Assembly (NCBI RefSeq): GCF_035084215.1
Contig: NC_090329.1
Span: 35,526,001 to 35,590,000, forward strand
Source: Heptranchias perlo
Taxonomy: Eukaryota
Direction: 5' to 3'
Length of the DNA stretch: 64,000 nt
The stretch's first letter is position 1; every line of letters starts with the position of its first letter. Of the stretch, positions 1 through 61,170 are shown piece by piece. A program made the position numbers and the translations under genes. The notes beneath the pieces were generated by a model. That model saw nothing but the letters and a program-made list of their open reading frames with translations. It was not told the origin of the DNA and did not search any database.

Positions 1-1512
1 GGGTGCGAATTTGGTCCCCATGGCTGTTCCGTGTGTTTGGGTAAAGAACTGGTTATCGAAGGTGAAGACATTGTGATCCAGGATGAAGCGGATGAGTTGT
101 AGGATGGCTTCCGGAGATTGGCTGTTGTTGGTGTTGAGTATTGATGCTGTCGCAGCGATGCCGTCATCGTGGGGGATACTGGTGTATAGTGCCGAGACGT
201 CCATTGTGGTGAGAAGTGTTCCTGGTTCAACTGGTCCGTGGGTACTGAGTTTTTGTAGGAAGTCTGTAGTGTCACGACAGAAGCTGGGGGTTCCCTGTAC
301 GATGGGTTTCAGGATGCCCTCGATGTATCCAGAGAGGTTCTCACACAGGGTTCCGTTGCCTGATACGATGGGACGTCCGGGTGTGTTGGCTTTGTGTATC
401 TTTGGGAGGCAGTAGAAGTCTCCCACGCGGGGATTACGTGGGATGAGAATGCGTAGGATGCTTTGAAGGTCTGGATCGAAGGTCTTGATCAGTTTGTTGA
501 GCTGGTGGGTGTGTTCTTTGGTCGGATCTGCGGGTAACCGTCTGTAGTGTTCCTGGTTGTCCAGTTGTCGGTATGCTTCTTTGCAATAGTCTGTTCTGTT
601 CTGTATGACTATGGCTCCTCCTTTGTCCGCTGGTTTGATGACGATGTTGCGGTTGGTCTTGAGAGCGTTGATGGCGTTGCGTTGTGCTCGGGTGACATTC
701 TGGACTGTCTTCTGAGTGCGGCTGATGAATCTGGCATTGACGCATTTCCTGACAGCTTGAGCATACATGTCCAGCTGAGGGCAGCGACCCTCCGGAGGAG
801 TCCAGTTTGACTCTTTCCTCTTCGGTTGCTGTACCGCGGATCCCTCTGTCTGCTGTTCCGGATCGTCGATTGTCTCATTGGGTTCGCTGCTGAAATCTTG
901 GGGTTTGTGGTAGAATTCCCGGAGCCTCATTCTCCTGATGAATTCCTCTGTGTCCGCCGCGAGACTAGTGGGGTCCATTTTGGTAGTGGGGCAGAAATTG
1001 AGCCCTCGGCTGAGAACTTCGATTTCGTCTGGTTGAAGGGTGTGGTCGGATAAATTGACAATAGACTTCCCTGTGGTTGCAACCGTGGTACCAGGGGAAG
1101 CTTGGTCGTTGCTGGTGGTGATGCCGAGTTTCTCAAGCTTCCTGCTCTTGGTTTTCATGTAGGCAGCGTAGTTCCGTTGCCTCGTCTGTTTGGCGGTATA
1201 ACGTAGCTGGTCTGCTGTGTCCTGAGTACAGGTTGAGAGTATGGACTCTATCTTGGTTTCGAGGTTGTGGCGTCTGCTGTAGAGTTGGTGTATGAGATGG
1301 TTGCGGAGTGTGCGAGAGGTACGGCGGCAGAGTCTCTCAGCGTAATCCGAGTTGTATGTGGACTTGAGTGGGTTCGTGATCTGGAGTCCTTTCGGGATCT
1401 TGTCTGCTTTCTTGCAGCTCTGTAAAAACTTGATGTCTGTGTCTAAATGCGCGATCTTCTTGGATATCCTTTCCACTGTGAGCCGGCAGTTTGTGGTGTC
1501 GATGGTAGTCAT
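1..1512 (-). CDS. N-terminal 504 codons of the full-length PLE ORF (N-terminal domain plus RT), open to the window edge
   Basis: Manual translation from ATG 1512 gives MTTIDTTNCRLTVERISKK...IVNLSDHTLQPDEIEVLSRGLNFCPT...KESNWTPPEGR with no stop, in frame with the second copy. The ORF track misses it because it has no stop inside the window. Confidence 0.92.
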   Translation of the reverse strand, partial: MTTIDTTNCRLTVERISKKIAHLDTDIKFLQSCKKADKIPKGLQITNPLKSTYNSDYAERLCRRTSRTLRNHLIHQLYSRRHNLETKIESILSTCTQDTADQLRYTAKQTRQRNYAAYMKTKSRKLEKLGITTSNDQASPGTTVATTGKSIVNLSDHTLQPDEIEVLSRGLNFCPTTKMDPTSLAADTEEFIRRMRLREFYHKPQDFSSEPNETIDDPEQQTEGSAVQQPKRKESNWTPPEGRCPQLDMYAQAVRKCVNARFISRTQKTVQNVTRAQRNAINALKTNRNIVIKPADKGGAIVIQNRTDYCKEAYRQLDNQEHYRRLPADPTKEHTHQLNKLIKTFDPDLQSILRILIPRNPRVGDFYCLPKIHKANTPGRPIVSGNGTLCENLSGYIEGILKPIVQGTPSFCRDTTDFLQKLSTHGPVEPGTLLTTMDVSALYTSIPHDDGIAATASILNTNNSQSPEAILQLIRFILDHNVFTFDNQFFTQTHGTAMGTKFAP

Positions 1513-1889
1513 GATGTGGAGATGCCGGTGATGGACTGGGGTTGACAATTGTAAACAATTTTACAACACCAAGTTATAGTCCAGCAATTTTATTTTAAAT
1601 TCACAAGCTTTCGGAGATTTTCTCCTTCCTCAGGCAAATGTTTCAAGATCTCCTTGAAGCCTACGCATTTATACATATTGAACAATAATACATGGTGTTT
1701 ACAGACTGCCCCTGCAACTGCCCGTTGCCAAGGCAATCACCGTGTTCAGACAGAGAGGTGTTACCTGCAGAACCTCCGAATACACATTCAACAAAAAAAC
1801 AAACAGGGAAAAAAAACAGAGAAAAAAAAAACACAGAGAGAGGCAGAAACATCCGGAAGGCAGAGAGAGCCAGCAAATGACCCATTATA
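1513..1889 (-). promoter_or_regulatory. PLE pseudo-LTR (3'UTR, promoter and 5'UTR)
   Basis: Lies between the stop of one copy and the ATG of the next. Contains X-box-like GTTGCCAAGGCAAT (1724-1737), minus-strand TATAAAT (about 1667-1673), a hammerhead, and AATAAA (1589-1594, minus). Confidence 0.8.
1599..1639 (-). ncRNA. Minimal type I hammerhead ribozyme in the pLTR
   Basis: Minus strand reads AUUUGC-CUGAGGA-A-GGAGA-AAA-UCUCC-GAAA-GC-UU-GUGAAU: conserved core, stem II, palindromic AGCU stem III, and stem I with G.U pairs. Confidence 0.85.
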
Positions 1890-3903
1890 TTAAAAACAGA
1901 TAACATTTGTTCGCTGGTGGGGTAACGTGTAGCGTGACATGAACCCAAGATCCCGGTTGAGGCCGTCCTCATGGGTGCGGAACTTGGCTATCAATTTCTG
2001 CTCGACGATTTTGCGTTGTCGTGTGTCTCGAAGGCCGCCTTGGAGTACGCTTACCCGAAGGTCGGTGGATGAATGTCCATGACTGCTGAAGTGTTCCCCG
2101 ACTGGGAGGGAACCCTCCTGTTTGGCGATTGTTGCACGGTGTCCGTTCATCCGTTGTCGCAGCGTCTGCATGGTCTCGCCAATGTACCATGCTCTGGGGC
2201 ATCCTTTCCTGCAACGTATGAGGTAGACAACGTTGGCTGAGTCACAGGAGTATGAACCATGCACCTGGTGGGTGGTGTCATCTCGTGTGATGGTGGTATC
2301 TGTGTCGATGATCTGGCATGTCTTGCAGAGGTTACCGTGGCAGGGTTGTGTGGCGTCGTGGACGCTGTTCTCTTGAAAGCTAGGTAGTTTGCTGCGAACG
2401 ATGGTCTGTTTGAGGTTGGGTGGCTGTTTAAAGGCGAGTAGTGGAGGTGTGGGGATGGCCATAGCGAGGTGTTTGTCCTCATTGATGACATGTTGAAGGC
2501 TGCGGAGAACATGGCGTAGTTTCTCCGCTCCGGGGAAGTACTGGACGACAAAGGGTACTCTGTTGGTTGCGTCCCGTGTTAGTCTCCTGAGGAGGTCTAT
2601 GCGATTTTTTGCTGTGGCCCGTCGGAACTGTCGATCGATGAGTCGAGCGTCATATCCCGTTCTTACTAGGGCGTCTTTCAGCGTCTGTAGGTGTCCATCG
2701 CGTTCCTCCTCGTCTGAGCAGACCCTGTGTATTCGCAGGGCCTGTCCATAGGGGATGGCCTCTTTGACGTGGTTAGGGTGGAAGCTGGAAAAGTGGAGCA
2801 TCGTGAGGTTGTCCGTGGGCTTGCGGTAGAGTGAGGTGCTGAGGTGCCCGTCTTTGATGGAGATTCGTGTGTCCAAGAAAGAAACTGATTCTGAGGAGTA
2901 GTCCATGGTGAGCTTGATGGTGGGATGGAACTTGTTGATGTTATCGTGTAGTCTCTTTAGTGATTCCTTGCCGTGGGTCCATAGAAAGAAAATGTCGTCG
3001 ATGTATCTGGTGTATAGTGTTGGTTGGAGGTCTTGTGCAGTGAAGAAGTCCTGCTCGAACTTGTGCATGAAAATGTTGGCGTATTGGGGTGCGAATTTGG
3101 TCCCCATGGCTGTTCCGTGTGTTTGGGTAAAGAACTGGTTATCGAAGGTGAAGACATTGTGATCCAGGATGAAGCGGATGAGTTGTAGGATGGCTTCCGG
3201 AGATTGGCTGTTGTTGGTGTTGAGTATTGATGCTGTCGCAGCGATGCCGTCATCGTGGGGGATACTGGTGTATAGTGCCGAGACGTCCATTGTGGTGAGA
3301 AGTGTTCCTGGTTCAACTGGTCCGTGGGTACTGAGTTTTTGTAGGAAGTCTGTAGTGTCACGACAGAAGCTGGGGGTTCCCTGTACGATGGGTTTCAGGA
3401 TGCCCTCGATGTATCCAGAGAGGTTCTCACACAGGGTTCCGTTGCCTGATACGATGGGACGTCCGGGTGTGTTGGCTTTGTGTATCTTTGGGAGGCAGTA
3501 GAAGTCTCCCACGCGGGGATTACGTGGGATGAGAATGCGTAGGATGCTTTGAAGGTCTGGATCGAAGGTCTTGATCAGTTTGTTGAGCTGGTGGGTGTGT
3601 TCTTTGGTCGGATCTGCGGGTAACCGTCTGTAGTGTTCCTGGTTGTCCAGTTGTCGGTATGCTTCTTTGCAATAGTCTGTTCTGTTCTGTATGACTATGG
3701 CTCCTCCTTTGTCCGCTGGTTTGATGACGATGTTGCGGTTGGTCTTGAGAGCGTTGATGGCGTTGCGTTGTGCTCGGGTGACATTCTGGACTGTCTTCTG
3801 AGTGCGGCTGATGAATCTGGCATTGACGCATTTCCTGACAGCTTGAGCATACATGTCCAGCTGAGGGCAGCGACCCTCCGGAGGAGTCCAGTTTGACTCT
3901 TTC
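1890..3903 (-). CDS. PLE reverse transcriptase plus Cys-rich linker plus GIY-YIG endonuclease (5'-truncated copy)
   Basis: RT motifs IKPADKGG, YCLPKIHK, GRPIVS, TMDVSALYT, GTAMG, YIDD, FLD. Linker PCHGNLCKTC and VVYLIRCRKGC..WYIGET..R..EH..E..GLN match the Neptune-type GIY-YIG domain. Confidence 0.95.
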
Positions 3904-4135
3904 AGGAAGGCAAACAGGCTCTCAATTAACCGATTGGATGATGCTTGACTGTCAGTCAAACAGAACTTTTTATCCCGTCTCCAATATTTTATAACTAATA
4001 AATTAAAGTGTTCAAGGGAAATGAAAAAAAATCACACGCCTTTTTTTTTCTCCCGGGTTGCTGGTAGAAGTGTCCTGGAGATTAATCTCTAATTCCTGGA
4101 GACTCCGGGACAATCCTGGAGGGTTGGCAACCCTA
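3904..4135. mobile_element. Right part of a hAT-like MITE (TIR TAGGGTTGCCAAC) interrupted by the PLE
   Basis: Ends GGTTGGCAACCCTA; internal sequence matches the copy at 25803-26070. Confidence 0.75.
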
Positions 4136-5029
4136 CATCAAACATCACATGTTGCCAGTGCCTACCTTCAAAGGGCTTTATAAATATAAAAATACCACAC
4201 AATTCATGTATCAGCTTTTCAGTTTTGTCTGGTCATGAGGCACAGGGACAAAACACAGCTCTATGAGCATGCACAGATTTAAGTCTTGCAAAGGCTGTAT
4301 TATGTTGATTTGCTAAGGATTCAGACTGCCACCTTTCCCTGAAAAGTATTTGTTTAATCCCAAATTCTGCAAGGAAGTTTTCAAGGCATTTTTTCTGACT
4401 GCTTTGCCAGTTTCACGAACTGGCACCGAACGTCTATTTTTGGACAGATTTCAATGTCTTGCTTCTGTAAGTAACTCTGTTTAATACTGTAGTCTGTTAT
4501 TAAAATGTTTGGTGTGACTGATATTATCTTTCTGAAGTGACGTAAGACATAGTGGAATTCCTACATGCTATCTGGTAACCTGAGCTGCCCTAACTTCAGG
4601 TTATAAAATGTGCTGGGATGTAAGGCTCCTCTCCCTGCTGGCCACGGCATACTGACTGTTGGAAGTGGAAAATTGTCACACTGGTGGACTATGGTAGGTT
4701 CTTCTTAGGTTGGGCCTTTGGCACGTTGTTAGAGCACGGAGTAGAAGAAACATTTTGCTGCCTCAAAAGAAGCTATGCCTGACCTGGAAGTGATTGATGT
4801 TGACAGCGCATGGTTGAAATAGAAAAAAAGAAGTTGTATTTATATAGCGTTATCTCTCTCAGGATATCTCACAGCATCTCACATAAAACAGATTACTTTG
4901 AAATGCAATCACTGTTGATAGGTGGTTGAACACAGAAACTGTTTTGTGCACAGCAATGTCCCACAGACAGCAATAGGATGGGTTACTCTGTCGTTAGTGG
5001 TGTTGGTTGAGGGAAGAATGACCAAAATG

Positions 5030-5765
5030 CAACAACAACAATAACTTGCATTTATATAGTGCCTTTAACGTAGCTGACACTGAGCCACATAAGGAGGTAT
5101 TCGGACAGGTGACCAAAAGCTTGGTCAAAGAGGTAGGTTTTAAGGTGGGTCTTAATGGAGGAGAGAGAGTTAGAGAGGAGGAGAAGTTTAGGGAGGGAAT
5201 TTCAGAGCTTAGGGCCTAGGCAGCTGAAGGCACGGCCGCCAATGGTGGAGCAAATAAAATCAGGGATGTGCAAAAGGCCAGAATTGGAGCAGCGCAGAAA
5301 TCTTGGAGGGTTGTAGGGCTGGAGGAGGTTACAGAGATAGAGAGGGGCGAGGCCATGGAGGGATTTGAAAACAAGGATGAGAATTTTAAAACTGAGGCGT
5401 TGCCTGACCGGGAGCCAATGTAGGTTAGCGAGGACAGGGGTGATGGGTGAACGGAACTTGGTGCGAGTTAGGATACAGGCAGTAGAGTTTTAAATGAGTT
5501 CAAGTTTATAGAGGGTGGAAGATGGGAGGCCGTTTAGGAGAGCATTGGAATAGTCAAGCCGAGAGATAACAAAGGTATGGATGAGGGTTTCAGCAGCAGA
5601 TGAGCTGAGGCAGGGACGGAGACGGGCGATGTTACGGAGGTGGAAGTAGGCGGTCTTGGTGATGGAGCAGATATGTGGTCGGAAGCTCATCTCAGGGTCA
5701 AATAGAACATCAAGGTTGAGAACAGTGTGATTCAGCCTCAGGCTATGGCCAGGGAGAGGGCTGGA
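5030..5765 (-). mobile_element. L2 LINE 3' fragment
   Basis: ORF 5490-5852 has L2 ORF2 C-terminal motifs (AYFHLRNIARLRP, LIHTFVISRLDYSNALL). Tail (CAA)n-CTTGCATTTATATAG. Confidence 0.9.
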
Positions 5766-5897
5766 GAGAACTTCCTGCTCTGAGTAGTGCGATGGGATCT
5801 TTAATGTCCACCTAAACAGCCAGACAGGGCTAAAGGATGGGGCTTTCAACAATGCAGCACTCCCTCAGTAATACAATGGAGAGTCAACCCACATTAC

Positions 5898-6089
5898 AGA
5901 TGCAATTTTAATATGCCGGCAGGAAGAGTCCGGGGTGGGGGGTGATTTGCGGGTGCCAAACCCGGAAGGGAAGTAGGCGGGTTGCATTAATGAGGCCATT
6001 TAAAGCCTCTTCCGGGTTTTGCGCCCAGCTGCCAGCCTGATTGACGGGCTGGCTGCTGACAGGAGCTTCACATATGAGGTGGGGGGGTG

Positions 6090-6123
<34 letters not shown>

Positions 6124-7203
6124 CCTCATCGGCCGTTGGGAGAGAGATAATCTGATTATGGATTGTTTCCAAAGCACCTGGACCTGGCTCTCTTCCTCAT
6201 GCATTATTTTCCTCGAACCATTATCATCCTGGCACAAGAAACTTGCATGAAATTGTTCTGAAACAAAACTAGTGTCCAGGTTACACATGCTTTTCTGTTG
6301 GGATTTTGTACTTTAGTGCTGGGAGTTGATTCTTGGTCAGAAAGAAAGAAAGAACTTGTGTTTAGGATTTCATAAATACTTGGCCATAGTCATATAATGT
6401 GGTTAATGGGCAGTTTATTAACTTTTCATAAAATATGACAAATGTGTGTAGATATTGCAATGTGTGTTTTTTCGAGAAGTACTAGTTCAAGTTTAAAAAT
6501 CTTCTGGTTAACATATATGCTGTAATCTGTCAGTCTTGTAATATTTCCACTCCCCATATCCCCAGTGTATTAATTTGATGCTATGTTTTCCATCATTGGG
6601 AGAGAGATTGGTGGCGGGGAGGGAGTCAAAGTTCAGAGGGTGGGGGGAGACATCGGAGGGGGGAGACATCGGACATCGGAGGGGGGGGGTGACGTCGGAC
6701 ATCGGAGGGGGGGGGTGACGTCAGACATTGGAGGGGGGGAGACATCGGAGTGGTGGGGGTGCAGGTGACATTGTTTTTAAGGTATGTTTATTTGTTTTTA
6801 CAATAGGAAATGTAATTTAATTTAATTTATTTACTTTATTTTTCACTGATCCGGCTCTTCACTCCTGGTTTAACCAGGCGTGAATCAGAAGCTGTGGGAA
6901 AGCCTCCCAGGTACAGTCAAAATCTTTTTAACTGTCCAATATGCAAAAAATAAACGACCTTAAGTACCTCAACGAGTTACATTTGCTCCTTTAATTATCA
7001 GCCCGCCGGCTTTAATTGACGACGGGACTTCGGGGTTCTCAAATGGCTCTGGGTTGTGCGTGTTCTTCAGCGGGTTGGAGCCGGGTACCCTGCTTGCTCC
7101 AAAAAAAATCACAATTTTCTTTACCGCCGCCCCCCCACCCCCCCCCCCCCCCACCCCACCCCGGCCCCCAAAGCACCCGGACTTTCATTTTAAAATTGAG
7201 CCT
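5898..7203. mobile_element. Harbinger-type MITE with internal G-rich repeats and a 447-bp foreign insert
   Basis: Imperfect TIRs AGATGCAATTTTAA / TTAAAATTGAGCCT; inserted in the DeuSINE; GACATCGGAGGGGGG repeats at 6640-6750. Confidence 0.7.
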
Positions 7204-7534
7204 TATGTGCTCAAATTCTGGAGTGGAGCTTGAAACCATTGCTTCTGACTCAGAGGTGAGAGTGCAACCAGCTGAGCAAAGCTTGTTTCCCAGCACTAAT
7301 AACCCCTGTCTTGATAAGCACAAAATTCATGAGAAACAATAAATAAAAAAACTGCCATCTACAGAGGCTAAGCTATCTTTCAGCGTACTCACAATATTGT
7401 ACCCAGACCTTGTTACAGAATTCCCCTGCCGTTGTGACATTTATCAGAGGGAGTCTGTGACTAGAAGCTTTTTATTTTAAATTTATCTTTTAGAACATTT
7501 CCAAGGGTTCCCCTGAGGGATCAAATGGTCAAAT

Positions 7535-7940
7535 TCACCCACTGGTACAGTACTGATCCATACAGACTAGGATGATCCCAGGTTCAATTCTTTGTCTGTG
7601 ATAAGTTAGCTGATCTCAGGCGTGACAGCACTAAGGGTGCTACAATTGACCTCAGTATCTCTGGGCTGAGGAAGGAGGAAAAAAATAATCTCGGGTTCAG
7701 ATTCCTGATCAATGTCAAGTGACCCTGATGGAACGAGCTCATGTGTGGACTTTGGACGAGGAATCAAACTCGACTGTGATACTCTCCCATGGTTCAGTAA
7801 CCTCCTCACCTTGACTACCCAGGCTCAAACATGAAGAATGATCAATCAGGAGAGGGACTACTGGGCTGTCAACACTTGTGAAACCATCCTCCAGCACAGC
7901 TCAATGTTTTCAGAAAAAGAGGAAAGGAAATTGGAAGAAA
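7535..7940 (+). mobile_element. AmnSINE2-like ancient SINE
   Basis: CCCAGGTTCAAT..GTTAGCTGATCTCAG..CTACAATTGACCTCAG..ACATGAAGAATG matches the recalled consensus. Related copies at about 10.8-11.25, 49.5, 50.2-50.47 and 57.0-57.36 kb. Confidence 0.65.
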
Positions 7941-8210
7941 AGTATTTTTGTAATTGGTAGTTTGGCGTGTGGCACTCAATTCCTGACAGTTTAAGTGAAG
8001 GCCACCTGATCTTTGATTATCCGATGACAGATCATGGTTACCACTTGTCCATCGGGGGAAGCTAAGTGGGGGTTGATGTGTCTGAGTACCTCAGTGATGT
8101 ATGTGCCTATTGCCTTGATGATACCAAAGGAGTTATGTCTCTGATATCTGGCCATCTATTCTTCATTCAGGGAAGATAAGATTGTGCACACACTTACCAA
8201 ACATAGCAAT

Positions 8211-8539
8211 GGGGGTTATTTTAACTATACCCTGGTGGAAACCAGGCGGATAGGCAGTTAAAATTCCCCAGTTCTCTCACCCGCGCTGAGAGGGTGGCAA
8301 AGATACCCGCTCAAAGCCAGCAGGGTCCTTCTTAGCATATGTATGCCGGGTCCTGATGATGTTATTTGGACTCAACTGCAATTTTTACTTTAAGGCCTGA
8401 GCAGGAAATGGCAGTGCTTCATTTTAATCACCAGACAATTATGAGCATCACAAATGGGGCAGACTGACTTCCATCCCTGATTGTCCTATTTGCATCTAGT
8501 CAAGCAAGGCCAGAATCAAAGCCTCACAAAATTGACCCC
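8211..8539. mobile_element. Harbinger-type MITE
   Basis: TIRs GGGGTTATTTT / AAAATTGACCCC with A/T-rich 3-bp flanks. Confidence 0.6.
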
Positions 8540-10168
8540 ATAAAGCATTAAATGGTATAGATAGGACAAACCAAGACTATTAATTCAAAGTAAATCAGGA
8601 AAGTGGGACCAGAAGACATAACTTTAAAGAGTAAAAATCAATGCTAAACTCAGTTTGCATCGATAATAAAATATTACATCAAATAATTTTTTGGGAGGGA
8701 TGTAAATGATAAAATGGATGAATATTTGTGCAAGCAGAAGTAAATCCTTTGTATGCATTAGAAAATTGAGTTGGAATCAATTGTATGTAAGGTCTGACAC
8801 TTTGCACTCCCACATGAGGAAACATTACTGCAATAAAAAAGCAGTAAGTTTTGTAAGATAATTTACTGAGATTCAATTGTTCCAGAATGGTGAAAAATTG
8901 TCTCTTCATTATGGTTTATAGATGTCAACACAAACCTATAGAAGTCCCAGGTGAAGTGGGAGACACAAAAACACTTCAGCATTACTTTAATGTGCTGTTT
9001 GGCATCAGAACTGAAGGACAACTATTTTTTGCCTTAAAGAATATCTTGATTTAAGTTGAACTTTCCAAAAGTAGGAAGTAAACACAAACTTGCATGCAAG
9101 GATGTGAACAATTATAAATGAGGTTATGCTGGGCCATTGCAATACGCTGGTCAGACTACAATTGGAGAACTGTGTTCAGTTCTGATCACCACACCACAAA
9201 AAGACAAATCCCTACATTCATGACGCTACAGAGAAGTGAAACAAAACTGAACCCAAGTGCAATAAGGTTGGGCTATGAGTGATATGTATGGTACTGATAT
9301 TGAATAATATAGGTATGGTAAACACAGTAAATTACTTTAAATCTAGCTAGTGAAACAGGATATAAATCTGAATTGGTGTAATGCAGATATTCGGAAGAAT
9401 TTCGATACTCAAAAAAGTGCTAAATGTCGGGAATAGTCTGAGGGTGTGGTCATAGAGACATGAACATTGGAAATTTCCAATGCAGCTGATTCTACAATGG
9501 GAGAGTGAAGGTGCTTTTATATAACGCTCTCGGGCTACGTTAGTGCAATTGTTTCCCAATTGGCTCCCAAAATCAAGTTACTGGATTTGCTGAGATCAGC
9601 TGCTGGGAAGATCCAGTGAAAATGGGGCTTCCCAACTTTAGTGATCCCTGCAGATTTACTTTGGGGGTATCACTCGATGCTTGAGACCAGTGCATCAGGA
9701 ACCAGCGGCACCTAACCCAACATACAACCAACTTTAGGTAACTGCATGACTGAGTTTTGTTATTCTTGACTTTTCTTAGGCTCCTTCAGATTAGTTTTGG
9801 TTCAAGTTTTGTGCTTCTAAATGTGACACTGTTCACTCAGATCTTCCTGTCAGACAGGGTGAGATGGAAGGTGACAGAATCACACTTCAGTTTGGATGAA
9901 ATTAAAGTAAGGTGCGTAGCCTTTCTGCAGGTTCAAATTGGGGTTACACAGTGCCGAATAAAGCTTCAGCCCTTACACCTGGAAACATTTATGGAGTTTC
10001 CTTTGCTGAGATGTTATTTTTAAAACTATTTTGTTACAATTGAGGCTTAAACGTGTGGCATTACATCTAAACAGTGAGAGCAGATGATGGGTTGGTGAAG
10101 TGAAACGATGAGCTGTCTGAAATTGTTAGCAGTTTGTTCTCTAAACAAAACTTTCTACAGAGTCAAAT

Positions 10169-16338: not shown

Positions 16339-16467
16339 AGATGTGGAGATGCCGGTGATGGACTGGGGTTGACAAATGTAAACAATCTTACAACACCAAG
16401 TTATAGTCCAACAATTTTATTTGAAAATCACAAGCTTTCGGAGGCTTCCTCCTTCCTCAGGTGAATG
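16339..16467 (-). mobile_element. Solo PLE pLTR fragment containing a hammerhead (about 16427-16466)
   Basis: Homologous to 1513-1640; minus strand UCAC-CUGAGGA-A-GGAGG-AAG-CCUCC-GAAA-GC-UU-GUGA. Confidence 0.88.
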
Positions 16468-16825
16468 ACATGACCTGTATTGTTTCTTAACTCTAACCAA
16501 ATAGATTCTGTCCTTGACCCCTCCAGGACATTCTTTCTCTCCAGCACTGTTATATTCTCCTTAATCAATACTGCCACCGCCCCCCTCCTTTCTTTCCTTC
16601 CCTACCTTTCCTGAACACTTTGTATCCAGGAATATTTAGAACCCAATCCTGCCATTTTTTGAGCCAGGTCTCTGATATTGCCATGACATCATATTCCCAT
16701 GTGGCTATTTGCGCCTGTAGCTCACTAACCTTATTTGTCACGCCTTGTGGGTTTACACACATGCACTGTAGACCTATCTTAGACCTTCTTGTATTCACTC
16801 ACTGCAGTCTTTTTCTGCATTGTAT

Positions 16826-17095
16826 GTGGGTGAAATTGGTCATTGGCGGTATCGTAAAACGGGCGAAGTTATTAGATATGCCCGTTGTACTTCCTGCTCG
16901 ATATTCAGTTCCACTGACTTCAATAGAATTGATTATCAAATGGGGCATATAACAGGTGGTCAACAATACCATCCGGTCAGCGATACCATCCGGTCAACAA
17001 TACCATCCGGTCAGCGATACCATTCGGTTAGCAATACCATCCGGTCAGCGATACCATCCGGTCAGCACCACCAGCCAAGGTGAATTATTACCCCC
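16826..17095. mobile_element. MITE with an internal 17-bp tandem array (16961-17062, 6 units)
   Basis: Ends GTGGGTGAAATT / AATTATTACCCCC; unit CARCRATACCATCCGGT. Confidence 0.65.
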
Positions 17096-24560: not shown

Positions 24561-24686
24561 ACACGAATCTGCAGAGGCCGATTGTAACTCTGGCGGATAA
24601 GTAGTGGTGTGACTTCGAAACTGACCCGCTGCTCCAGAAATGAGGCCCGAGGTATTTTAACTCCGAGGCCTCACTTAAATTTCACT

Positions 24687-25308
24687 TGTAAACAATTTTA
24701 CAACACCAAGTTATAGTCCAACAAATTTATTTTAAATTCCACAAGCTTTCGGAGGCTTCCTCCTTCGTCAGGTGAACGGTATGGAAATGACATTTTCGAA
24801 TCCTTCGCATTTGAAAATCACAGAACAATGCCTGGTGATTACTGCCCGTTGCCAAGGCAATCACAGTGAGCAGACAGAAAGGTGTCACCTAAAAGGCCAC
24901 CGAATATACAAACCCCCCAAAAAAAAAGAGAGAAGGAAGACAGTCAATGACCCGTTATATTAAAAACAGATGACATTTGTTCGCTGGTGGGGTTACGTGT
25001 AGTGTGACATGAACCCAAGATCCCGGTTGAGGCCATCCTCGTGGGTGCGGAACTTGGCTATCAATTTCTGTTCGACGATTTTGCGTTGTCGTGTGTCTCG
25101 AAGGCCGCCTTGGAGTATGCTTACCCGAAGGTTGGTGGCTGAATGTCCATGACTGCTGAAGTGTTCCCCGCAGCGTCTGCATGGTCTCGCCAATGTACCA
25201 TGCTCTGGGGCATCCTTTCCTGCAACGTATGAGGTAGACAACGTTGGCCGAGTCATAGGAGTATGAACCGTGCACCTGGTGGGTGGTGTCCTCTCGTGTG
25301 ATGGTGGT
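24687..25308 (-). mobile_element. Truncated Neptune PLE (GIY-YIG 3' end plus pLTR with hammerhead at 24737-24776) inside a Harbinger-type MITE
   Basis: ANVVYLIRCRKGCPRAWYIGET; about 59-bp internal deletion relative to 2101-2159; TCACT duplicated at 24682-24686 and 25308-25312; core CUGACGA...GAAA. Confidence 0.9.
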
Positions 25309-29534: not shown

Positions 29535-31333
29535 GGGTAGAAGGAGTAGATGCGATAGACGGAGTAAAAAGCGCTGGACAGATTAGAAACACTAGAGAAG
29601 TGATTGGCCTTTCCCCAGTTGAGAACTTTAACTCCTGTTCTGTCTTTGTCCTTTTCATAACTATGCTAAAACTAACTGTATTATGATCATTACCACCAAA
29701 CTGCTCTCCCACTGATACTCCTTCCACCTGTCCCTCTTCATTTCCTAGAACTAATTCCAGAACTGCCCCCCTCCTCCCCCCCCTCTTGTTGGGCTTGCTA
29801 TATACTGGCTAAAAACATTCTCCTGTATGCAATCTCATCTGGTATCATTCTAGTAAATCTTTTTTGTACCTTCTCCAGTGCAAGACCTGGACAACATCCA
29901 GGCTTGGGCTGATAAGTGGCAAGTAACATTCGCGCCAGACAAGTGCCAGGCAATGACCATCTCCAACAAGAGAGAGTCTAACCACCTCCCCTTGACATTC
30001 AACGGCATTACCATCACCGAATCCCCCACCATGAACATCCTGGGGGTCACCATTGACCAGAAACTTAACTGGACCAGCCATATAAATACAGTGGCTACAA
30101 GAGCAGGTCAGAGGCTGGGTATTCTGCGGCGAGTGACTCATCTCCTGACTCCCAAAAGCCTTTCCACCATCTTCAAGGCACAAGTCAGGAGTGTGTTGGA
30201 ATACTCTCCACTTGCCTGGATGAGTGTAGCTCCAACAACACTCAAGAAGCTCGACACCATCCAGGACAAAGCAGCCCGCTTGATTGGCACCCCATCCACC
30301 ACCCTAAACATTCACTCCCTTTACCACCGGCACACTATGGCTGCAGTGTGTACCATTGACAGGATGCACTGCAGCAACTCGCCAAGGCTTCTTCGACAGC
30401 ACCTCCCAAACCCGCGACCTCTACCACCTAGAAGGACGAGCAGCAGCCACATGGGATCAACACCACCTGCACGTTCCCCTCCAAGTCACACACCATCCCA
30501 AATTGGAAATATATCGCTGTTCCTTCATCGTCACTGGGTCAAAATCCTGGAGCTCCCTTCCTCACAGCACTGTGGGAGAACCTTCACCACACAGACTGCA
30601 GCAGTTCAAGAAGGCGGCTCACCACCATCTTCTCGAGGGCAATTAGGGATGGGCAATAAATGCCGGCCTCGCCAGTGATGCCCACATCCCATGAACGAAT
30701 AAAAACTCCTCTAAGCTTTCCGTAGTATTGAGTTCTCGGTGTCTATTATAAGCTTTCTTTTTCTGCCTTATCTTACCCTGAATGCTTCTTGACACCGAGG
30801 GGGCTCTCGATTTGGCAGCCCCTCCCTTTTTCTTTGTGGGAACATGTTAACCCTGAACCCCTTGAATCACCCCTTTGAATATCTCCCACTGCTCTGACAT
30901 TGATTTACCTTCAAGTAGCTGTTTCCAGTTTACTTCTGCTAAATCACTTCTCAGGAATAGACGTACTAGAAGGATTAGACGCACTAGAGGGAGTAGACAC
31001 ACTAGGGGGAGTAGACATACTAGAGGATGCAGACACGGTAGAGGGAGTAGATGCACTGGAGGGAGTGGACGCACTGGAGGGAGTGGACGCACTGGAGGGA
31101 GTGGACGCAGTAGAGCGAGTAAATGCGATAGAGAGATTAGACACGATAGAGGTAGCAGATGCGGTCGAGGGAGCAGACGTGATAGAGGGAGTAGATGCAC
31201 TAGAGGCAGCAGACGCACTAGAGGGAGTAGACGCACTAGAGGGAGTAGACGCACTAGAGGGAGTAGACGCGATAGAGGAAGCAGTCATGGTAGAGGAAGC
31301 AGATGCCGTAGAGGGAGTAGATGCAGTAGAGGG
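29535..31333. repeat. 21-bp minisatellite (GAGGGAGTAGACGCACTAGAG-like) in two parts, 29535-29601 and 30954-31333, separated by a LINE block
   Basis: About 18 units in the right part and about 3 degenerate units in the left part. Confidence 0.85.
29602..30953. mobile_element. Composite block: CR1 pieces (minus; 29602-29878 and 30706-30953) around a CR1/Zenon-like LINE (plus; 29879-30705)
   Basis: CR1 motifs GGNDHN..NWGKAN and LRSDLAEVNW; Zenon-like ORF 29878-30678 (WADKWQVTFAPDKC, ILGVTIDQKLNW, VRSVLEYSP). Confidence 0.88.
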
Positions 31334-31719
31334 GACCAAGAAAAATATGCACAAAATCCATACAAAAAGTCATCAAATATACAAATGGAATGAAGAATTG
31401 GGGGGTAGACTTTGTTAATGCTGAAGTGAGACTATGCCCCCATCTCTCCAGCAAAGTCTAAATGATGGAAATGTGTCCTTATGGTCCAAGTGCACATTTT
31501 ATTATAGTAATTTACTTTGGTGAGGTTGGTTATGCTGCTGTTTTTCTAAAATATTTGGATTTGACACTGGTGGCCTGAAAGAGGACTTCAAGTTACAATC
31601 CCAGTAACCTATGAAATAAACAAAATGCAAAACAGAACACAGAATGCACCAGATAAATCTCCTTTCCAATTTCCTGCTAAGAGACAATTGACAAAGTATG
31701 AAGAACACGTGACACCCAC

Positions 31720-60960: not shown

Positions 60961-61170
60961 AGCCATGATGTGGAGATGCCGGTGATGGACTGAGGTGGAC
61001 AAATGTAAGGAGTCTTACAACACCAGGTTATAGTCCAACAGTTTTATTTGAAATCACAAGCTTTCGGAGGCTTCCTCCTTTGTCAGGTGACGAAGGAGGA
61101 AGCCTCTGAAAGCTTGTGATTTCAAATAAAACTGTTGGACTATAACCTGGTGTTGTAAGACTCCTTACAT
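60961..61170. mobile_element. PLE pLTR fold-back insertion with 10-13-bp target duplication
   Basis: 83-bp arms (61003-61085 and 61088-61170) with a 2-nt loop; (CAT)AATGGAGAGA at 60948-60960 and 61168-61180; lies within an old plus-strand CR1 remnant. Confidence 0.92.

What the first reader, a model, noticed from the sequence alone, without database searches (positions are those of the whole stretch)
1599..1639. Minimal hammerhead ribozyme in the pLTR, supported by covariation among four copies
Seen: copies at 1599-1639, 16427-16466, 24737-24776 and 61053-61090 keep the CUGANGA...GAAA core (one G8>A in the last) while N7 varies (G or C). Stem II swaps a pair in compensatory fashion (GGAGA/UCUCC versus GGAGG/CCUCC), and stem I changes to G.U pairs (UUGC/GUGA versus UCAC/GUGA). 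Stem III is only the palindrome AGCU. Established: PLE minimal hammerheads with palindromic stem III cleave as dimers. Inference: cleavage after CUU (1605/1604) at successive pLTRs of a tandem transcript would release a unit-length 3086-nt RNA that could circularise.
Basis: partly seen in the sequence, partly recalled or inferred. Interest (0 to 1): 0.7.

Follow-up and report, generated by a model that had tools for sequence, protein, structure and literature searches.

The report
Penelope hammerhead: cut versus uncut templates
This is a known kind of tiny, predicted self-cutting RNA motif in the end repeat of a young, very abundant Penelope-like jumping gene; short copies stop just in front of the motif and longer-than-unit copies were not seen to stop there, which suggests that short copies likely come from uncut RNA and long ones likely from an RNA circle.

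Summary
The four hammerhead copies are real; a fifth, damaged one lies on the + strand at 61088-61119. The motif is a minimal type I hammerhead of the kind published for Penelope-like elements, in a young, intact element with 67,093 exact motif matches genome-wide (control 0). The 3086-nt spacing is confirmed; the partner hammerhead lies just left of the window. Copy ends test the circle idea. None of 136 copies starts exactly at the cut. Instead, 27 of 59 young insertions stop just upstream of the hammerhead (peak 1643, 30 nt behind a TATA box), against 0 of 28 that reach the same place after a full unit. A single pool of linear RNA does not fit this. Best reading (0.5): one-hammerhead RNAs stay uncut; two-hammerhead RNAs are cut and circularised. 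Strand transfer or long linear donors remain open; no cleavage or RNA was shown. The circle idea is published (PMC4209133), and this scan noted both it and the start-site pile-up before on other pieces of this genome.

The parts
1599..1639 (-). Minimal type I hammerhead, copy 1 (young subfamily); stem I 1639-1634 with 1604-1599, core 1633-1627, extra A 1626, stem II 1625-1613, palindrome 1610-1605
   Evidence: sequence; folding; 9,199 exact genome matches of its 32-nt core
1604..1605 (-). Predicted scissile bond after CUU (U17/G1.1); not shown to be cut
   Evidence: hammerhead numbering on the sequence; 0 of 136 copies start exactly here
1667..1673 (-). TATA-like box TATAAAT
   Evidence: sequence; an AT-rich box followed by ATGCG at a similar place in other subfamilies
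1643..1643 (-). Inferred transcription start, 30 nt behind the first T of the TATA box and 10 nt in front of C3
   Evidence: 12 of 84 terminal young arms end exactly here, 29 of 84 in 1633-1644; modal ends track the box across subfamilies
1509..1551 (-). PLE tail: two fixed 3' ends (about 1547 and about 1511), inferred reverse-transcription start sites
   Evidence: 45 short and 38 long ends among 84 arms; 24 of 25 two-armed insertions have one of each; analogy to PMC11167929
1513..1889 (-). Non-coding pseudo-LTR between stop codon and ATG (377 nt)
   Evidence: ORF limits, tandem repeat
1..1512 (-). 5' part of the complete ORF (ATG 1512-1510); it continues left of the window; 902 aa in a sister copy
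   Evidence: RVT_1 E 3.3e-10
1890..3903 (-). 5'-truncated upstream ORF copy (RT, CX4CX2C linker, GIY-YIG-like endonuclease read by eye)
   Evidence: RVT_1 E 2.1e-10
3904..3913 (-). One copy of the 10-bp target-site duplication around the 5444-bp (1.76-unit) insertion; the other copy lies left of the window
16340..16467 (-). 128-bp stub of an older subfamily: starts 7 nt in front of C3, ends at the long tail; hammerhead 16427-16466
24683..25308 (-). 5'-truncated copy of an older subfamily with short tail; hammerhead 24737-24776
60961..61170 (.). Two-armed head-to-head stub: minus-strand hammerhead 61053-61090 (G8>A) with long tail, plus-strand hammerhead 61088-61119 (no C3, C11.1>U) with short tail
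   Evidence: (I6)

Best explanation
This is a minimal type I hammerhead motif in the pseudo-LTR of a young, intact Penelope-like retrotransposon, and it likely works as a two-copy switch: an RNA with one hammerhead would stay uncut, while an RNA with two would be cut at both and closed into a 3086-nt circle. Steps. Inferred: 1643 is the transcription start of a TATA promoter, so the hammerhead sits at the very front of the RNA; the two 3' ends are reverse-transcriptase start sites. Inferred: RNAs from solo or 3' pLTRs carry one hammerhead, cannot build stem III, and are copied to their 5' end, giving 95-135-bp stubs with an intact hammerhead. Predicted, untested: in a pLTR-ORF-pLTR transcript the two AGCU palindromes pair, probably with help from the element's protein, both sites are cut, the capped leader is lost and the ORF-bearing monomer keeps a tail only near its 5' end, so only a ligated circle can template long copies; copying round it gives partial tandems and 2-3-unit arrays with no stop at the start site.
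For: Motif: 67,093 exact matches, control 0; core columns near invariant while N7 and loop II vary; 90.7% of cells paired against 27-51% for slid partners; extra nucleotide at 9/10.1, G10.1-C11.1 and palindromic 15.2-16.2 as in PMC4209133. Uncut class: 56 of 136 copies end 27-49 nt upstream of the cut, none at it; the modal end is 24-25 nt behind the ATGCG after the box in subfamilies whose box-to-C3 distance is 32, 35 or 41 nt, so it follows the promoter, not the ribozyme; short-tail (11) and long-tail (7) arms stop at the same place. Arrays of about 2.8 and 3.2 units with 5'-truncated starts exist and their units share haplotype markers.
Against: No cleavage, ligation or RNA was observed. 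A hammerhead-made junction is seamless, so the genome cannot tell it from strand transfer. Naiad PLEs form the same partial tandems without canonical hammerheads (PMC8557442 passages). In the anole element, hammerhead mutants did not change insertion in vitro and no RNA-seq reads began or ended at the cut (PMC11167929). Dimer activity is low (PMC4209133; 1 of 9 in bioRxiv 2026.07.22.740005). Nearest-neighbour energies do not favour the active dimer (-14.9 against -17.4 kcal/mol for two monomers and -17.5 for a 6-bp palindrome duplex that ties up A14 and U17). The two samples are not age-matched: second-pass loci were picked for 100% identity over 251 nt, first-pass loci for 32 nt. In the 404-nt array two adjacent units share one substitution, which points to DNA-level duplication, not pure rolling-circle copying.
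Confidence: 0.5

Rival explanations
1. The hammerhead is not used to make the template. Long copies come from the uncut linear pLTR-ORF-pLTR RNA: on reaching the RNA's 5' end the cDNA jumps to the identical stretch (start site to tail) at the 3' end, as LTR elements do, and goes on; stubs are cDNAs from RNAs that offer no second repeat.
For: Explains 0 of 28 second-pass stops and the first-pass pile-up equally; the transcript would be terminally redundant over 1643-1511; hammerhead-less Naiads make tandems (PMC8557442); uncut RNA was the main substrate in vitro (PMC11167929).
Against: Needs seamless transfer in at least about 88% of cases by an enzyme in which no RNase H family matched (absence in PLEs recalled); leaves the conservation of the catalytic core across subfamilies unexplained.
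Confidence: 0.25
2. Long copies come from long linear RNAs read through multi-unit master arrays or from upstream host promoters, so no 5' end lies one unit upstream of the tail; the hammerhead plays no part.
For: Arrays with 3-4 hammerheads exist; PLE transcription from an upstream partner's pLTR is described (PMC6765202 passage).
Against: With priming spread over the tails of an N-unit RNA begun at a pLTR, second-pass stops should be at least as frequent as first-pass stops; observed 0 of 28 against 27 of 59. Each linear product is shorter than its donor, so arrays would shrink unless rebuilt (inference). The arrays seen look like products (5'-truncated, tail-ended).
Confidence: 0.15
3. The hammerhead does something else: it removes the short capped leader to control translation or decay, or its AAGCUU palindrome serves to pair two RNAs in the two-armed insertion complex, with little cutting.
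For: It lies 10 nt from the inferred start and 92 nt before the ATG; the 6-nt palindrome is invariant or nearly so and its duplex is predicted at -4.3 kcal/mol; 24 of 25 two-armed insertions use both tail sites; 6 of 136 ends lie within 2 nt of the cut, above the 1.5 expected from neighbours (Poisson p 0.005-0.02).
Against: Does not by itself explain the missing second-pass stops; both arms of young insertions carry the same haplotype, so two different RNAs are not shown; the small excess near the cut could be an AT-rich endonuclease site.
Confidence: 0.1

Closest known systems
Minimal hammerheads (min-HHR) in pLTRs of metazoan PLEs (Cervera and De la Pena 2014, PMC4209133; main text parts 1-2 of 4 read)
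   Same: Type I, short stem I, extra nucleotide between 9 and 10.1, G10.1-C11.1, palindromic 15.2-16.2, one per pLTR about 3 kb apart, many solo and opposite-strand copies; the paper proposes the same cleavage-circle-multimer model.
   Different: Stem II here is 4-5 bp, not 7-8 as in the Schistosoma families; copy number (67,093 exact) is above the 4,000-9,000 quoted for coelacanth and Xenopus; the paper has no analysis of copy ends.
PAc, Poseidon element of Anolis carolinensis (Frangieh et al. 2024, PMC11167929; main text parts 1-2 of 4 read)
   Same: Two RT start sites bounding a tail, AT-rich targets, hammerhead near the ORF start, uncut RNA used as template.
   Different: There the cut is 26 nt inside the ORF and RT starts 111-118 nt into it; here the cut is 92 nt before the ATG and both tail ends lie at or before the ATG. 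The linker motif here is Neptune/Nematis-like.
EN+ PLE insertion architecture, Neptune/Nematis type (PMC8557442 and PMC3846280, passages)
   Same: Partial tandem, inverted 5'-truncated arm, 30-40-bp tail on one end, 9-10-bp TSD, TATA-plus-initiator in the pLTR, CX2-5CxxC linker.
   Different: No difference in kind. Drosophila Penelope has a TATA-less internal promoter (PMC2377424, abstract only); here the inferred promoter lies upstream of the start.
Animal non-LTR retrozymes (bioRxiv 10.64898/2026.07.22.740005; parts 1-3 of 5 read)
   Same: A 404-nt, 9.5-unit hammerhead array derived from this very element exists at one locus (L036).
   Different: The finding itself is part of an autonomous, protein-coding element; the array's junction was found at one locus only, so it is not a spreading family.

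Membership tests
PLE minimal type I hammerhead (min-HHR) | Core CUGANGA ... GAAA ... UH with stems I and II able to pair | tested here: met
   stem II pair probability 0.95-0.97 and stem I 0.87 for copy 1 alone
PLE minimal type I hammerhead (min-HHR) | [quoted passage not shown] | tested here: met
   A at 1626; column 16 at least 90% A; pair 17:29 G-C in 51, G-U in 6 of 57; feature from PMC4209133
PLE minimal type I hammerhead (min-HHR) | Stem III reduced to a palindrome | tested here: met
   AGCU kept in 55 of 57 distinct copies
PLE minimal type I hammerhead (min-HHR) | Compensatory changes among families | tested here: inconclusive
R-scape not available.
PLE minimal type I hammerhead (min-HHR) | Self-cleavage as a dimer, not as a monomer | not testable with these tools
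   needs bench assay; energies do not favour the active dimer
Rfam hammerhead families | Score at or above a curated hammerhead model | tested here: not met
   no hit in the window at gathering score; no hammerhead family at E up to 10 in 1400-1900
Endonuclease-bearing Penelope-like element | Single ORF with RT and C-terminal GIY-YIG endonuclease | tested here: met
   902-aa ORF, RVT_1; the GIY-YIG and CCHH motifs were read by eye from the translation and Pfam gave no hit for them
Endonuclease-bearing Penelope-like element | Partial tandem with pLTRs, optional inverted arm, 30-40-bp tail, TSD | tested here: met
Neptune/Nematis clade | CX2-5CxxC motif between RT and endonuclease | tested here: met
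   CX4CX2C in the translation; definition from PMC8557442 passages
Neptune/Nematis clade | Placement in an RT phylogeny | not tested
   no reference RT set was on hand
Non-LTR retrozyme | Non-coding tandem units with a hammerhead each, spreading as a family | tested here: not met
   the finding is in a coding element; the 404-nt array's junction matched at full length only at its own locus among 40 scored of 448 candidates

The most novel reading that the evidence does not exclude
The genome's copies record two RNA templates sorted by the hammerhead: one-hammerhead RNAs are copied uncut to their capped start, while two-hammerhead RNAs are cut and circularised in vivo, and only those circles rebuild the promoter-bearing tandems that keep the element alive. 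This would be the first evidence that a vertebrate Penelope-like element replicates through a ribozyme-made RNA circle, readable from copy ends alone.
Probability: 0.4. Interest if true: 0.65.

Novelty: new member of a known kind. Interest (0 to 1): 0.33.

Why it matters
The motif itself is ordinary: such hammerheads are described for Penelope-like elements across animals. What is still open is what they do: one paper proposes cleavage and circles, another finds the ribozyme dispensable in vitro. A young family with about 9,200 identical motifs and a sharp first-pass against second-pass difference in where copies end turns that question into a countable test and names exact RNA ends (1643, 1605/1604, 1547, 1511) to look for.

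Tried and rejected
Rfam scans found no hammerhead. The bare core pattern is not above chance in the window. Linear cleaved monomer as main template: rejected, 0 of 136 copies start at G1.1 and 122 read through. Pile-up as a structural stall at the ribozyme or as early low processivity: rejected, since it tracks the TATA-like box across subfamilies, is the same for both tail types and is absent on the second pass. Two arms from two different RNA variants: suggested by a few older pairs but not supported, 12 young two-armed insertions share haplotype markers between arms (the pooled per-kb figures there include nested older copies and were not used). The 404-nt array as proof of rolling-circle copying: not accepted, single locus and one substitution shared by two adjacent units; its junction is not a splice junction. 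Expression: no RNA holder listed; four contig sets of uncertain type (X1-X4, one sample) were laid twice and cannot show starts, ends or strand. Two short DNA searches of the genome returned nothing because such words are too common. No solved-structure relative at useful E-value. Lunse et al. 2016 (PMC5785218) is not held; only its title was seen in a reference list. No covariance model was built and R-scape could not be run.

Full report
1. Observation. The four copies stand at the stated places on the minus strand. A fifth, damaged copy lies on the + strand at 61088-61119 as the second arm of an 83-nt inverted repeat. The bare core pattern is not above chance in the window (12 against 7.47 expected) and no Rfam hammerhead model scores, but the full motif has 67,093 exact matches in the 3.25-Gb genome with 0 for the reversed control; the 32-nt form of copy 1 has 9,199 and a downstream 21-nt anchor 105,204.

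2. The element. Copy 1 lies in the 377-nt non-coding stretch between a stop codon (1890-1892) and an ATG (1512) of a reverse-transcriptase ORF. DNA left of the window completes it: a 5444-bp, 1.76-unit partial tandem, units 100% identical, a second hammerhead 3086 nt downstream and a 10-bp target-site duplication. A sister copy gives the ORF as 902 aa. Pfam finds only RVT_1; the GIY-YIG-like motif and a CX4CX2C linker, which PMC8557442 (passages) assigns to Neptune and Nematis, were read by eye. No phylogeny was run. Earlier scan notes call the host a shark; I did not test that.

3. Covariation. From 136 anchor-bearing copies, 93 span stem I and give 58 distinct segments; one with an insertion in loop II was dropped, leaving 57. 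Pairs are kept in 90.7% of cells against 27-51% when partners are slid. Two-sided changes occur at 3 of 13 pairs, no more than shuffles give (410 of 500). The cleaner changes are stem II pair 3 (A-U to G-C, 4 sequences, with 5 G-U) and one stem I pair (4 sequences), all in one subfamily. The structure is well supported by conservation and wobble tolerance, weakly by covariation.

4. Where copies end. 3' ends fall at two places, about 1547 (45 of 84 young terminal arms) and about 1511 (38 of 84); 24 of 25 two-armed insertions have one of each. This is the PLE tail, which PMC11167929 (main text) ties to two RT start sites; both lie downstream of the predicted cut. For 5' ends I used an anchor downstream of the cut. 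The 136 copies come from the window, its neighbour, 400 kb of contiguous blocks and regions around the first 100 anchor matches on contig C1; a few regions were chosen from the hammerhead list, a slight bias to intact motifs. Ends: 8 downstream of the cut, 6 within 2 nt (none exactly at it), 5 at 3-26 nt upstream, 56 at 27-49 nt upstream, 61 further. The modal end sits 24-25 nt behind the ATGCG that follows a TATA-like box whether C3 is 32, 35 or 41 nt away. In the young subfamily 12 of 84 arms end exactly at 1643, 30 nt behind the first T of TATAAAT (90 of the first 100 listed places fetched, 3 identical contexts collapsed). About 30 nt is the usual TATA-to-start distance (recalled); a TATA box with initiator in a pLTR is described in PMC3846280 (passages). 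I infer that 1643 is the transcription start and that these stubs were copied from RNA with an uncut hammerhead.

5. First pass against second pass. Copies that carry the ORF start behind the hammerhead were primed one unit further downstream and meet the same sequence a second time. Of 30 such loci (top 30 of 40 scored among 1272 candidates) none ends in 1633-1655; the nearest ends are 1672, 1676 and 1702. A linear RNA running from one pLTR's start through the next would end every completed copy at 1643. So long copies come from templates with no end there: a circle, a seamless strand transfer, or long read-through RNA. Arrays of about 2.8 and 3.2 units exist, and their units share haplotype markers. 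Caveat: the two samples are not age-matched.

6. Mechanism. One hammerhead cannot form stem III, so RNAs from solo or 3' pLTRs stay whole and give stubs. Two hammerheads can pair through AGCU; cutting both removes the capped leader and separates the downstream tail from the ORF, so only a ligated 3086-nt circle templates long copies. None of the chemistry is shown. Against it: low dimer activity (PMC4209133, parts 1-2 of 4), protein-dependent cleavage that was not needed for insertion in vitro (PMC11167929), 1 of 9 active dimers (bioRxiv 2026.07.22.740005, parts 1-3 of 5), tandems in hammerhead-less Naiads (PMC8557442), a CUU site where GUC is reported best (PMC2238771 passages), and energies that do not favour the active dimer. 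Folding predicts stem I at 0.87 for the isolated motif, 0.30 in the start-to-tail RNA and 0.10 when 57 upstream bases are present, so the downstream copy is predicted to be misfolded on its own; in a dimer its cut site could still be cut by the upstream core (inference). I put the circle at 0.5, strand transfer at 0.25, long linear donors at 0.15, other roles at 0.1.

7. Related array. At C2:21.27 Mb a 404-nt piece (1788 to 1385) of this subfamily is repeated 9.5 times inside one short target-site duplication, ending at the long tail. The junction matched only there. It looks like a retrozyme in the making, but two adjacent units share a substitution, so DNA-level duplication took part.

8. 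Novelty. The motif, its dimer logic and the circle hypothesis are in print (PMC4209133; review passages PMC6765202). Three searches listed no paper that uses first- and second-pass copy ends as a test; the library lacks most subscription papers, Lunse et al. 2016 could not be read, and no supplements or figures were seen, which may bear on this. Earlier AI notes of this scan on other pieces of the same genome report the start-site pile-up and the circle reading; my note of the pile-up and the second-pass data predate those look-ups, and the notes are not independent support. Verdict: real, a new member of a known kind, interest 0.33, with a testable handle on an open mechanism.

Noticed in passing
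L036:4856-8682 (G000:C2:21272856-21276682): 404-nt pLTR-plus-ORF-start unit with an intact hammerhead, 9.5 copies head to tail inside a 9-12-bp target-site duplication; blunt non-splice junction; single locus; the two 3'-most units share a substitution in the TATA box.
   Followed up: partly
L039, L041, L227, L233, L234, L236, L245, L248, L249, L260: The two arms of young inverted insertions have similar lengths (for example 1967/1941, 936/960, 476/508, 737/707) and share private variants, so both arms come from one template type or one is copied from the other; L231 (218/1941) is an exception.
   Followed up: partly
window 1633-1663, minus strand: Upstream bases near 1658-1663 are predicted to pair with stem I and the start of the core, lowering stem I probability to 0.10 in read-through RNA: a possible built-in off state for the downstream hammerhead; not checked in other subfamilies.
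   Followed up: partly
window 1601-1606 equivalents in L067, L069, L133, L111, L153: Six of 136 copies end within 2 nt of the predicted cut (three at +2, three at -2), about four times the neighbouring rate; may be a minor cleaved class or an AT-rich endonuclease site.
   Followed up: partly
L031:6570-7215 (left of the window): An older two-armed copy of a related subfamily lies about 250 bp from the 3' end of the window's element.
   Followed up: no
window 1765-1870, minus strand: Long pyrimidine tract followed by CAG/GTAACA in the pLTR, resembling splice signals; no spliced joint was seen in the laid contigs.
   Followed up: partly
window 30919-31386 and 16932-17093: Degenerate 18-nt and 17-nt tandem repeats.
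   Followed up: no
window 16467-16620: The stub at 16340-16467 appears to interrupt a CR1-like LINE fragment (label recalled, not tested).
   Followed up: no
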